Assembly: GCF_003019035.1 (NCBI RefSeq)
Contig: NZ_CP027447.1
DNA: 64,000 bases
From: Escherichia coli
GTDB lineage: Bacteria; Pseudomonadota; Gammaproteobacteria; Enterobacterales; Enterobacteriaceae
Direction: 5' to 3' (one strand)
Part shown: piece after piece, positions 53,085 through 54,947 of the stretch
How the letters are laid out: each line of letters opens with the position of its first letter
Numbering within the stretch: position 1 is the first letter of the stretch
The notes under the pieces: generated by a model
Seen by the model: only the letters and a program-made list of their open reading frames with translations
Database searches by the model: none
Told to the model about the DNA's origin: nothing
Translations under genes and position numbers: made by a program

Positions 53085-53091
53085 GTAACCG

Positions 53092-53157
53092 TGCCGGATG
53101 CGGCGTGAACGCCTTATCCGGCCTACAAGGCCCGATAAGCGTTGCGCATCGGGCAAT
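53092..53157. repeat. REP pair (BIME) downstream of ascB
   Basis: GCCGGATGCGGCGTGAACGCCTTATCCGGCCTACA followed by an inverted partner GGCCCGATAAGCGTTGCGCATCGGGCA. Confidence 0.75.
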
Positions 53158-53170
53158 CTGGCGTTTGGCA

Positions 53171-53422
53171 TCAGAGCTGGTTCACCCCATCAAGAACATC
53201 CCCCTTTATCAAGCAACGCTGCGTCAGCGCCAGATCTTCCGATTGCGGGTCGCGCCCGGCGATGGGTTTGAGGACGAGTTTACGGTTGGGGGTATAAGTA
53301 AAACGCGTGAGCGCGGGATAGCTTAACTTGCCAAACCAGCCGTGAACACGCTGCCATTTGGCGTCTTTTACCTGATACAGACTGGTTATCCAGTAACCGG
53401 AATCAAACTGCATATCCAGCAA
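53171..53422 (-). pseudogene. orphan ORF fragment, possibly the 3' remnant of a gene truncated by the adjacent insertion
   Basis: 83-aa ORF with no convincing ribosome-binding site; an in-frame stop lies just upstream of its first ATG; sits between the ascB REP and the prophage-like region. Confidence 0.3.
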
Positions 53423-53636
53423 TTGCGTGTGGCCATTCCTTGATCAGACATGAGATAAATGAAGGGGGATCCGTGAGATAAATAACGAATTGGAGTGGGT
53501 TAACATGGGTTCTGGTGAACAGAACTGAAATTCTTTTTCGTTATACGATAGATAAGTCGGACATTGAAATCATCCTTTCTGGCAACTTAGAATCGAGTTT
53601 GCTGAAACATGACTCGTAACAAAAAGGATGATTCCA

Positions 53637-53798
53637 ATGACTACTCAAAACAATAAGCATGATAGCCTGGATTACTCAGAAAAGCCCAAAAGCAAGCACA
53701 TCGTGACGTTCGAGCGCGATTCCGGTAGAAAAGGAGAATCGTCTTCCTCTGCCAATAAAAACACTATACCGGCAGCTCCTGCTCCGGGGAAAAAATAA
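53637..53798 (+). CDS. hypothetical small hydrophilic protein (53 aa)
   Basis: Hand-translated MTTQNNKHDSLDYSEKPKSKHIVTFERDSGRKGESSSSANKNTIPAAPAPGKK; AAGGA about 10 nt upstream of the ATG; below the ORF-track cutoff. Confidence 0.25.
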   Translation: MTTQNNKHDSLDYSEKPKSKHIVTFERDSGRKGESSSSANKNTIPAAPAPGKK

Positions 53799-53801
53799 AC
53801 A

Positions 53802-54434
53802 TCATTCATCGTTCGTTGCACGAACGCGCCTGATCTCCACTCTGGCAATCTGATCTGCTGGAATATAGGTTGCCAGAGCTCCCCAGTACTTATCAACCAC
53901 GCCTTTATACTCTTCCCATTCGTTACTGCCTGAAGGGCTGCTGTGTGTGACGTAAAGAACCATATCGCCTTTATTCCCCAGGGTAAACGGACCGTTAGGC
54001 CACTCTTCAAAGTTCCCTGGCAGTCGTGACATCATACCGGAACCATCGCGAAGAATCACTCTGACCTCGGTGACGCTGAAGTCTGTTTGATCAAACATTG
54101 CCTGCCATGCTGAGCTGGTATCGTCAGACCATGAAATATCATTATTCCACAGTAATCTGTACATCCATTTGCGACCGTACCTGCGCCACCACGCACCACA
54201 TGTAACAGCACACAGAAGTGCTGGTGGTGTTGCCAGCCAGGCATTCAGACCTGCCCACATAACAGCCTGGTAAGCCATCATTGCTGTCAGGCCAAAAATT
54301 AGCGAAGAAAAAGTCACCTCAATGGGTTTGTGCTGATCCTTCAGCCCCACATTCGCAATAAAATACCCAATATAGCCACTGGTCAGAGTCACCAGTGTTG
54401 CCCATGGCAAATTTAACAACGAAACGTCAAACAT
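53802..54434 (-). CDS. prophage-encoded membrane protein, unknown function (3 predicted TM helices plus about 120-aa soluble domain)
   Basis: ORF 53802..54512; start trimmed to ATG 54434 (MFDVSLLNLPW...), which has an AGGGAG Shine-Dalgarno 6 nt upstream; lies just past the post-mor terminator. Confidence 0.6.
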   Translation of the reverse strand: MFDVSLLNLPWATLVTLTSGYIGYFIANVGLKDQHKPIEVTFSSLIFGLTAMMAYQAVMWAGLNAWLATPPALLCAVTCGAWWRRYGRKWMYRLLWNNDISWSDDTSSAWQAMFDQTDFSVTEVRVILRDGSGMMSRLPGNFEEWPNGPFTLGNKGDMVLYVTHSSPSGSNEWEEYKGVVDKYWGALATYIPADQIARVEIRRVRATNDE

Positions 54435-54471
54435 ATTTTCTCCCTGCATCCTGAATACTACAGAGAGAGCA

Positions 54472-54508
54472 TAAAAAAAGCACGGTAAGGGGTCTACCGT
54501 GCTTTTAT
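54472..54508 (-). terminator. intrinsic terminator after mor (end of the early operon)
   Basis: Minus strand reads GCACGGTA-GACCCCT-TACCGTGC followed by TTTTTTT; A-tract on the other side makes it potentially bidirectional. Confidence 0.8.
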
Positions 54509-54548
54509 ACAATAAGGAGATTTTTGAAAGGACTTTAACAAGCAGGAA

Positions 54549-54947
54549 TTATCTGGATTTGTTAACGTCTCTCGTCTCTTCTGGCAGATCTTCATCAAAC
54601 AACCTGCCCTGCATCCGATCCAGTTCTTCTTTTCTGACCCGCTTAACCACGCTGTAGACCCACTGAAGCGAAACACCAAACTTGCGGGCCAGTTCATGGT
54701 GGTTGCGTCCGTTAAACTCCCGGAAGATTTCCCGGTCGCGCTGACTGACCTTCCATACCATGCCCATCGGGAAATAAACGTTTTGCCCGCCCCAGACCTG
54801 CATCATGCGGTTCGCGACGGCCTGACCAATCTGGTCGGCAATTGCGGGCTCAATATCAATAATCTCGCGAACGGTCTCAGAGGTATGCTGTGCCAGTTCC
54901 ACCAGGAGTTCCGGCCCTTTACTTCGAAACTGATTCAGGTCGCTCAT
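54549..54947 (-). CDS. mor: Mor-family middle-operon transcription activator
   Basis: 132-aa ORF; C-terminal HTH (HHELARKFGVSLQWVYSVV) and position after GemA as in Mu; family assigned from memory. Confidence 0.75.
   Translation of the reverse strand: MSDLNQFRSKGPELLVELAQHTSETVREIIDIEPAIADQIGQAVANRMMQVWGGQNVYFPMGMVWKVSQRDREIFREFNGRNHHELARKFGVSLQWVYSVVKRVRKEELDRMQGRLFDEDLPEETRDVNKSR

What the first reader, a model, noticed from the sequence alone, without database searches (positions are those of the whole stretch)
53637..53798. Unlisted 53-codon ORF convergent with the prophage membrane-protein gene
A small hydrophilic Lys/Ser-rich ORF with a plausible AAGGA ribosome-binding site lies between the orphan fragment and the 3' end of the membrane-protein gene; its stop is 3 nt from the convergent gene's stop. 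It could be a small partner, for example an antitoxin-like or regulatory peptide, or simply noise.
Basis: seen in the sequence. Interest (0 to 1): 0.3.

Follow-up and report, generated by a model that had tools for sequence, protein, structure and literature searches.

The report
Conserved small prophage gene, convergent partner
The 53-codon ORF is a real, selected small-protein gene of unknown function. In every intact relative examined it sits tail-to-tail with a membrane-protein gene, as a two-gene accessory cassette at the end of a Mu-like prophage, and it is built so that only its own promoter should get it translated.

Summary
The ORF is present exactly as described: ATG 53637, stop 53796-98, AAGGA 8 nt upstream, 3 nt from the convergent stop. 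It is not noise, and it is not globally unlisted: RefSeq annotates it as a hypothetical protein and it is PHROG 15726. It lies 196 nt inside the end (about 53441) of a BcepMu-type transposable prophage inserted between ascB and hycI.

A homologous 46-57 aa ORF lies convergent to the membrane gene in 23 sequence-distinct loci. These include Klebsiella, Proteus, Salmonella and Bradyrhizobium, and one HK97-type head module. The one locus without it is a deletion. The frame is under purifying selection (pN/pS about 0.3, against 1-1.9 in the other sense frames).

Upstream is a sigma-70-like promoter whose -10 (TAGAAT) is invariant in 13 lineages. A covarying 17-20 nt inverted repeat has its left arm on the -35 and its right arm on the SD and AUG. 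This matches the IS-element device that blocks translation of read-in transcripts.

A classical antitoxin is not supported, and two AlphaFold fusion tests showed no interface. Function remains unknown. Interest is moderate.

The parts
53171..53441 (-). Host DNA up to the insertion point: the 3' remnant of a 251-aa hypothetical gene that lies between ascB and hycI in uninterrupted genomes. It is context, not part of the element.
   Evidence: 100% match of 53090-53441 to LF82, where the stretch lies inside LF82_RS14085 (756 nt), next to hycI.
53441..53550 (.). Terminal att region of a BcepMu-type transposable prophage. It starts with TG (TGATCAGAC...). Two 16-nt direct repeats (53447-53462 and 53470-53485, core GAGATAAAT, 23 nt apart) are presumed transposase-binding sites.
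   Evidence: homology in other E. coli starts at 53440/53441 and is flanked by different host genes (rhaS, sfaA, xylR, proP...); the repeats; the same terminal repeats in phage PhiKM, which lacks the cassette. PMC2628397: TG...CA ends in BcepMu-type elements.
53562..53581 (+). Left arm of the inverted repeat (CATTGAAATCATCCTTTCTG). It contains the -35 hexamer and lies upstream of the predicted transcription start.
53564..53593 (+). Sigma-70-like promoter of the small gene: TTGAAA, 18 nt, TAGAAT (10 of 12 matches). The start is predicted near 53601 (inferred).
   Evidence: scan. TAGAAT invariant in 13 of 13 lineages; -35 TTGAAA in 11 of 13 (TTGTAA and TTGAAC in the others).
53620..53639 (+). 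Right arm of the inverted repeat (CAAAAAGGATGATTCCAATG). It covers the Shine-Dalgarno AAGGA (53624-53628) and the start codon (53637-53639).
   Evidence: 84.6% of cells paired against 27-51% in slid controls, with 6 pairs changed on both sides. SD conserved.
53637..53798 (+). Small protein gene: 53 aa, hydrophilic, predicted disordered. Conserved N-terminal motif NN..D..DYSE.PK(S/G)..V and C-terminal PPxP-basic motif. Belongs to PHROG 15726.
53802..54434 (-). Convergent partner gene: 210-aa protein with three N-terminal transmembrane helices and a C-terminal beta-rich domain. PHROG 12870; distant homologues are borderline DUF6338.
54476..54506 (.). Strong intrinsic terminator between mor and the membrane gene (13-bp stem, A-run before it and T-run after it, so it looks bidirectional). 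It isolates the two-gene cassette. It is the first terminator a transcript from the small gene's promoter would meet.
   Evidence: a strong hairpin plus T-run at the same position in nine Mu-context lineages (window, L009, L011, L013, L015, L178-L181); four unrelated stem sequences occur among them.

Best explanation
The ORF is a genuine small-protein gene. With the convergent 210-aa membrane-protein gene it forms an autonomous two-gene accessory cassette (a 'moron'). Here the cassette is carried at the extreme end of a BcepMu-type transposable prophage.

Shown by computation:
- The gene is conserved and under purifying selection.
- In every intact relative it is paired tail-to-tail with the membrane gene.
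- It has a conserved SD and a conserved sigma-70-like promoter.
- A covarying inverted repeat puts the -35 in one arm and the SD and AUG in the other.

Inferred: transcripts that start at the gene's own promoter (about 53601) lack the left arm, so their ribosome-binding site is free. Transcripts that read in from host DNA carry both arms and fold back on the SD and AUG. The gene would then be translated only from its own promoter, wherever the phage lands. This is the logic IS elements use for their transposase genes.

Inferred more weakly: the peptide is cytoplasmic and disordered. It probably acts on or with the membrane protein as a negative regulator or antidote, either through its conserved DYSE.PK and PPxP motifs or because its mRNA must run antisense through the membrane gene as far as the terminator at 54476-54506.
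For: Coding:
- A homologous 46-57 aa convergent ORF ends from a 4-nt overlap to about 45 nt from the membrane gene's stop in 23 sequence-distinct loci, even where the membrane protein is only 41-46% identical.
- These 23 ORFs have no internal stop in the ORF frame, against 37-139 in the other five frames. They were chosen as open ORFs, so this is descriptive.
- NG86 dN/dS is 0.11-0.56 per pair. Pooled pN/pS is 0.29 in frame against 1.03 and 1.85 in the other sense frames. Excess synonymous change gives P about 5e-4 for two pairs.
- The SD lies 7-11 nt upstream in 19 of 21 lineages.
- It matches PHROG 15726 and is annotated by PGAP.

Pairing:
- Four of four look-ups that started from divergent small proteins found the convergent ~210-aa gene.
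- The cassette also sits in an HK97-type head module (L050) and in Bradyrhizobium.
- It is absent from related phages PhiKM and KP12, which share the att end or mor.

Promoter and fold-back: (z -4.2 for the plus strand). The compensatory TTGTAA/TTACAA change in L047 gives a perfect 17-bp repeat.

Precedent: the IS200 left end has a terminator against impinging transcription and a repeat that sequesters the SD (PMC4513863). The IS10 and IS50 cases are from my own knowledge.
Against: There is no expression or translation data.

Two AlphaFold2 fusion models with paired alignments place the peptide at pLDDT 30-41 with no interface. The paired alignments are shallow, so this is inconclusive.

The inverted repeat folds better as minus-strand RNA (z about -7 against -4). 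Of the 36 non-Watson-Crick cells, 23 are A.C or C.A, which are G.U pairs on the minus strand. The repeat may therefore act in the membrane gene's read-through transcript or in an antisense RNA instead.

Covariation in an inverted repeat cannot exclude a dimeric DNA-binding protein.

The Proteus-type lineages (L013, L036) have a different upstream region without this repeat.

L042 has lost the small ORF by deletion yet keeps an open membrane ORF, which argues against a strictly essential antidote.
Confidence: 0.6

Rival explanations
1. Spurious ORF. The interval is only the prophage att end plus the 3' flank of the membrane gene, and the open frame is chance.
For: 53 codons is within chance length. 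The peptide is low-complexity and AlphaFold2 gives it no structure. Direct protein search finds only 6 close clusters.
Against: The frame is kept open with a recognisably homologous peptide in 23 sequence-distinct loci, and its length differs only by whole codons. pN/pS is 0.29 only in this sense frame. The SD and promoter are conserved. The att repeats end about 90 nt upstream, and phages that share them lack the ORF.
Confidence: 0.03
2. The gene is real, but its main product is RNA. Convergent transcription from the strong promoter, or the inverted-repeat stem-loop on the minus strand (like IS10 RNA-OUT or IS200 art200), controls the membrane gene or the small gene. On this view the peptide is secondary.
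For: No terminator lies between the two convergent genes. The first one is the bidirectional-looking hairpin at 54476-54506, so the two transcripts must overlap. The minus-strand hairpin is very stable: -32 to -38 kcal/mol, z about -7. A.C mismatches dominate.
Against: Purifying selection acts on the amino-acid sequence. The peptide motifs persist with different codons in GC-rich Bradyrhizobium. The scan found no minus-strand promoter in 53300-54700 and I saw none conserved across lineages. The gap between the two stops ranges from a 4-nt overlap to about 45 nt.
Confidence: 0.15
3. A real small protein that is functionally independent of the membrane protein: two morons that travel together only because they sit side by side.
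For: No predicted interface. L042 keeps the membrane ORF without the small ORF. The peptide evolves much faster than the membrane protein (20-53% against 41-75% identity).
Against: Adjacency and convergent orientation are kept across Enterobacterales, alpha-proteobacterial-type loci and two unrelated prophage contexts. No small-ORF homologue was found without the membrane gene.
Confidence: 0.17
4. The inverted repeat is a DNA operator for a phage or host repressor that shuts the small gene's promoter, not an RNA fold-back.
For: One arm covers the -35. Symmetric half-sites of a dimeric protein also co-vary (cannot tell the two apart).
Against: The arms are 17-20 nt long and 38 nt apart, which is unusual for an operator. 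The second arm coincides with the SD and AUG in every lineage. Both RNA strands fold far better than shuffles.
Confidence: 0.15

Closest known systems
Protection of IS-element transposase genes from read-in transcription (IS10 'fold-back inhibition', IS50, and the SD-sequestering repeat in the IS200 left end)
   Same: It sits at the inward-facing end of a randomly inserting transposable element. The gene's own promoter lies between the arms of an inverted repeat. The distal arm covers the SD and start codon, so only externally initiated transcripts can fold back (IS200 in PMC4513863; IS10 and IS50 from my own knowledge).
   Different: The protected gene is a 53-aa accessory protein of a phage, not a transposase. 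Nothing has been tested experimentally. The complementary strand folds even better, so an RNA-OUT-like or 3'-UTR role is equally open.
Prophage morons (autonomous promoter-gene-terminator cassettes, as described for HK97/HK022-type phages; my own knowledge)
   Same: It is an accessory cassette with its own promoter, bounded by a strong terminator. It is present or absent among otherwise related phages. It is found at a genome end, and in L050 between head genes.
   Different: It has two convergent genes rather than one, and its function is unknown.
Type I toxin-antitoxin and other convergent antisense pairs (e.g. bsrG/SR4, txpA/RatA; my own knowledge)
   Same: A membrane-protein gene and a small convergent transcription unit have 3' ends that must overlap, on a prophage.
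   Different: The membrane protein is 210 aa with a folded cytoplasmic domain, not a hydrophobic peptide under 60 aa. The small unit encodes a protein under selection. Toxicity is untested.
Phage Mu com/mom at the Mu right end (my own knowledge)
   Same: A small regulatory ORF next to the end of a transposable phage, beside an accessory gene.
   Different: Com is a zinc-finger translational activator that is co-directional with mom. There is no sequence similarity: Pfam finds nothing in the peptide. Here the gene order is convergent.
PHROG 15726 / RefSeq WP_023892643.1 (small protein) and PHROG 12870 / DUF6338 (membrane protein)
   Same: Full-length profile matches at E 6.9e-40 and 2.2e-132, and identical RefSeq proteins.
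   Different: These are catalogue entries with no assigned function. DUF6338 is reached only by distant homologues and stays below Pfam's cut-off (25.4-25.9 against 26.5 bits).

Membership tests
Protein-coding gene (as opposed to a chance ORF) | Reading frame kept open with homologous sequence in diverged relatives | tested here: met
   23 sequence-distinct loci have no in-frame stop and differ in length only by whole codons.
Protein-coding gene (as opposed to a chance ORF) | Purifying selection specific to the frame | tested here: met
   dN/dS is 0.11-0.56. Pooled pN/pS is 0.29 in frame against 1.03-1.85 in the other sense frames.
Protein-coding gene (as opposed to a chance ORF) | Translation signal and evidence of translation | tested here: inconclusive
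   The SD is conserved 7-11 nt upstream in 19 of 21 lineages. No ribosome profiling or proteomics is available to these tools.
PHROG 15726 | Significant full-length match to the family profile | tested here: met
   E 6.9e-40, residues 1-53 on profile positions 1-53. The Salmonella Poona homologue matches only weakly (E 0.024).
IS-type fold-back protection against read-in transcripts | Inverted repeat with the distal arm over the SD and AUG and the proximal arm upstream of the native transcription start | tested here: met
   Arms at 53562-53581 and 53620-53639; -10 at 53588-53593. The long RNA folds at -24.7 kcal/mol (z -4.2). The RNA from the predicted start leaves the SD almost free.
IS-type fold-back protection against read-in transcripts | Pairing maintained in evolution | tested here: met
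   13 lineages: 84.6% paired against 27-51% when slid, with 6 pairs changed on both sides. Caveat: this also fits a minus-strand RNA or a protein operator.
IS-type fold-back protection against read-in transcripts | Read-in transcripts are translated less than native ones | not testable with these tools
   Needs reporter fusions.
Type II toxin-antitoxin (antitoxin) | Co-transcribed with the toxin in one operon; antitoxin has a DNA-binding fold | tested here: not met
   The genes are convergent. The peptide has no Pfam domain and neither protein has a PADLOC hit.
Type I toxin-antitoxin | Small hydrophobic toxin peptide (under about 60 aa) with an overlapping antisense RNA | tested here: not met
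   The membrane protein is 210 aa with three TM helices and a folded domain. Antisense overlap is inferred from the absence of an intervening terminator, not observed.
DUF6338 (PF19865), for the partner protein | Score above Pfam's gathering threshold | tested here: not met
   The window protein has no Pfam hit even at E 10. Homologues P0059 and P0066 score 25.9 and 25.4 against a cut-off of 26.5.
BcepMu-type transposable prophage (context) | Mor, GemA, Gam, ExeA-like B and Rve transposase genes; TG terminus; insertion at many different host sites | tested here: met
   Pfam Mor and GemA. Annotation of the identical prophage. Varied flanking genes. Related phage PhiKM is classified in Bcepmuvirus. 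The other end lies outside the window, so target duplication and the CA terminus were not checked.

The most novel reading that the evidence does not exclude
The pair is an undescribed kind of prophage accessory system. A three-helix membrane effector with a small beta-barrel cytoplasmic domain would be held in check by a convergently encoded, intrinsically disordered ~50-aa protein whose C-terminal PPxP-basic motif docks on that barrel, and/or by its antisense-overlapping mRNA. It would work as an exclusion, abortive-infection or addiction module. The IS10-like inverted repeat would supply both a fold-back against host read-in and a stable antisense stem-loop.
Probability: 0.15. Interest if true: 0.65.

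Novelty: new member of a known kind. Interest (0 to 1): 0.4.

Why it matters
Small proteins of about 50 aa are routinely missed or dismissed. This one can be shown from sequence alone to be a selected gene with a fixed partner, which gives a concrete two-gene cassette to test for superinfection exclusion, defence or addiction in clinically common E. coli lineages. About 117 complete genomes carry this end with at least 80% coverage.

The promoter-inside-an-inverted-repeat design suggests that transposable phages, like IS elements, shield end-proximal genes from transcription coming in from wherever they land. That would be a general and easily testable point about how randomly inserting prophages insulate their cargo.

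If the pair turns out to be ordinary cargo of unknown role, the result still corrects an annotation question: the gene is real, and its start is at 53637.

Tried and rejected
- Pfam, PADLOC and Rfam gave nothing for the ORF or region. The two Rfam hits are far below threshold and lie on the mor terminator.
- A direct protein search finds only close relatives. The wider family was recovered only through synteny and a profile search. The two long repeat proteins in that search (P0079, P0091) are low-complexity false positives.
- Two AlphaFold2 predictions of membrane protein or C-terminal domain, GS linker and peptide, run with paired alignments, left the peptide at pLDDT 30-41.
- The plus-strand hairpin at 53508-53526 was considered as a terminator against read-in. 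Its 3' arm is not conserved in L015 or L040, so it is more likely part of the att protein-binding region.
- I looked for a terminator between the two stops and for a minus-strand promoter for an RNA-OUT-like RNA. The scan found neither.
- I considered that the conserved C-terminal PPAP..KK reflects a DNA or RNA element downstream of the membrane gene. This is rejected because Bradyrhizobium encodes the motif with different codons.
- A viral-contig scan with the promoter/left-arm pattern returned mostly chance matches. Every hit that also had TAGAAT and an SD-ATG carried the small ORF.
- A literature search for DUF6338 found nothing functional.

Full report
**Observation.**
- ATG is at 53637 and TAA at 53796-98, giving 53 codons.
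- AAGGA lies at 53624-28, 8 nt before the ATG.
- Three nucleotides separate the stop from the stop of the minus-strand 210-aa membrane-protein gene (53802-54434).
- By length alone the ORF is unremarkable: there are 90 ORFs of at least 30 aa in the surrounding 8 kb.

**Context.**
- ascG, ascF and ascB occupy the window up to 53084.
- Host homology runs to 53441. In uninterrupted genomes such as LF82 that stretch lies inside a 251-aa hypothetical gene next to hycI. The 'orphan fragment' is therefore the remnant of a gene split by an insertion.
- From 53441 (TGATCAGAC...) the DNA matches elements that other E. coli carry next to quite different genes, such as rhaS, sfaA, xylR, proP and rstB. That is the signature of a transposable phage.
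- Reading leftward on the minus strand, the genes are transposase, an ExeA-like B protein, Gam, a DUF2786 protein, GemA, Mor and then the membrane protein.
- Relatives include phage PhiKM, classified in Bcepmuvirus, and Burkholderia phiE255. BcepMu-type elements have TG...CA termini (PMC2628397).
- Two 16-nt direct repeats with the core GAGATAAAT lie at 53447-62 and 53470-85. PhiKM shares them but lacks the membrane gene and the small ORF.
- The first ~110 nt are therefore the att end, and the small ORF belongs to variable cargo.

**Is it a gene?**
- RefSeq already annotates it: WP_023892643.1 at 100% identity and WP_167767286.1 in a copy that is 84% identical at the DNA level. It matches phrog_15726 over its whole length (E 6.9e-40).
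- A direct protein search found only six close clusters, so I went through the partner gene instead.
- Membrane-protein homologues extend to 34% identity in Klebsiella, Proteus, Salmonella, Serratia, Symbiopectobacterium and Bradyrhizobium.
- Wherever enough downstream DNA was available, a convergent 46-57 aa ORF ends between a 4-nt overlap and about 45 nt from the membrane gene's stop.
- The peptides align. They share an N-terminal NN..D..DYSE.PK(S/G)..V block, a variable Ser/Asp/Lys-rich middle and a C-terminal PPxP-basic motif.
- Starting from the other side, a profile of the peptides found about 19 clusters of 46-59 aa proteins and nothing else credible. All four divergent members I looked up have the convergent ~210-aa gene followed by mor and gemA.
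- The 23 sequence-distinct ORFs have no internal stop in frame, against 37-139 in the other five frames. They were chosen as open ORFs, so this is descriptive.
- Among the close variants dN/dS is 0.11-0.56. Substitutions concentrate at third positions (for example 5, 2 and 12 by codon position). Pooled pN/pS is 0.29 in the ORF frame against 1.03 and 1.85 in the other sense frames.
- The SD is conserved in 19 of 21 lineages. The upstream ATG at 53628 is not conserved, so 53637 is the start.
- One locus, L042, lacks the ORF. It is a ~230-nt deletion that runs from just after the -35 into the 3' end of the membrane gene.

**The cassette.**
- The pair also occurs outside Mu-like ends: between HK97-type capsid and head-tail genes in L050, in a GC-rich locus (L049), and in Bradyrhizobium, where the small gene follows a 156-aa gene.
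- In the nine Mu-context lineages examined, a strong intrinsic terminator lies immediately upstream of the membrane gene. Four unrelated stem sequences occur among them, so position rather than sequence is conserved. In the window it is at 54476-54506 and looks bidirectional.
- No terminator lies between the two convergent stops. This is moron-like architecture, and the convergent transcripts must overlap if both genes are expressed.

**Regulatory anatomy.**
- The only strong promoter-like site in 53300-54700 that faces the ORF is TTGAAA, 18 nt, TAGAAT at 53564-53593.
- TAGAAT is invariant in 13 of 13 aligned lineages whose peptides are as little as 20-50% identical.
- A 20-nt inverted repeat (53562-81 and 53620-39, 90% complementary) puts the -35 in the left arm and the SD and AUG in the right arm.
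- On a 13-lineage alignment, 84.6% of cells pair against 27-51% when the partner is slid, and six pairs change on both sides. Examples are UA to CG at one position, and TTGTAA/TTACAA in L047, which has a perfect 17-bp repeat.
- RNA that includes both arms folds at -24.7 kcal/mol (z -4.2). RNA from the predicted start near 53601 leaves the SD essentially free.
- IS elements use the same design so that transcripts entering from flanking DNA are not translated. IS200 is documented in PMC4513863; IS10 and IS50 are from my own knowledge.
- Caveat: the complementary strand folds more stably (z about -7, -32 to -38 kcal/mol). Of the 36 non-Watson-Crick cells, 23 are A.C or C.A, which are G.U pairs on the other strand.
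- The repeat could therefore act in the membrane gene's read-through transcript or in an antisense RNA, or it could be a protein-binding site. The scan found no minus-strand promoter.
- The Proteus-type lineages have a different upstream region.

**Function.**
- Nothing in Pfam, PADLOC or the literature assigns a role.
- AlphaFold2 models the membrane protein confidently as three TM helices plus a beta-rich C-terminal domain (pLDDT 85-92). By the positive-inside rule, my inference from the RRYGRK stretch after the third helix, that domain is cytoplasmic. The signal-less peptide could therefore reach it.
- Two fusion predictions with paired alignments left the peptide disordered and unplaced.
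- The partner role thus rests on synteny alone. L042 keeps an open membrane ORF without the small gene, in a genome that also carries an intact pair (L044). This weighs against a strictly essential antidote.

**Verdict.**
- 'Small partner' is supported by conserved gene order but not demonstrated. A classical antitoxin is not supported.
- The gene family is already catalogued as hypothetical. What is new here is the evidence for selection, the obligate convergent pairing across distant hosts and phage types, and the IS-like promoter-in-a-repeat.
- I rate it a new member of known kinds (a prophage moron small protein with IS-type translational insulation), of moderate interest.

Noticed in passing
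window 53441 to beyond 64000: A BcepMu-type (Bcepmuvirus-like) transposable prophage is inserted into a 251-aa hypothetical gene between ascB and hycI. Its early operon (transposase, ExeA-like B, Gam, DUF2786, GemA, Mor) reads leftward toward this end. The other end is outside the window, so target-site duplication was not checked.
   Followed up: partly
window 53450-53594; L004 3001-3144; L003 3001-3189: About 145-190 nt of this prophage end (att repeats plus the small gene's promoter region, without the ORF) occur as solo relics at 87-91% identity. They appear in roughly 190 E. coli records, including many ColV-type plasmids, with no annotation under them (hits H41-H64).
   Followed up: partly
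window 54476-54506 and 54435-54475: In the Mu-context lineages examined, the terminator between mor and the membrane gene is followed by a conserved TTTATTCT/TTTATGCT. Its loop holds a -35-like TGGATA/GTAGAC. This hints at a weak promoter for the membrane gene embedded in the terminator.
   Followed up: no
window 53610-53657: A 15-codon mini-ORF (MTRNKKDDSNDYSKQ) overlaps the small gene's SD and start in another frame. In a Salmonella/E. coli variant (P0003, 62 aa) a 1-nt indel fuses it to the small ORF. It is absent outside the E. coli group.
   Followed up: partly
window 53558-53645, minus strand: The inverted repeat folds much more stably as minus-strand RNA (-32 kcal/mol, z -7.0) than as plus-strand RNA (-24.7, z -4.2). 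The same holds in 13 lineages. It is unexplained whether this reflects a functional antisense or 3'-UTR structure, or only the A/C-rich composition of the 5' UTR.
   Followed up: partly
window 53090-53170: The spacer after ascB contains REP/BIME-type repeats. A query that included it matched more than 185,000 places in the E. coli collection.
   Followed up: no
L042 2560-2840 (IMG/VR UViG_2773858062_000006): A natural ~230-nt deletion removes the small ORF and fuses a 26-aa extension onto the membrane protein. The same genome holds two more related prophage copies (L044 with an intact pair, and L048).
   Followed up: partly
L050 1974-2760; L055 3001-4272: The same convergent pair sits inside an HK97-type head/head-tail gene cluster of a non-Mu prophage. 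In Bradyrhizobium the small gene lies 3 nt downstream of a 156-aa gene of unknown function on the same strand.
   Followed up: partly
window 53802-54434 (protein residues about 115-205): The C-terminal domain of the membrane protein is modelled as a small beta-barrel whose best, non-significant PDB matches are Sm/LSm proteins. The small peptide ends in a PPxPx[K/R]-like motif reminiscent of SH3 ligands. This is a speculative link, and AlphaFold2 does not support it.
   Followed up: partly
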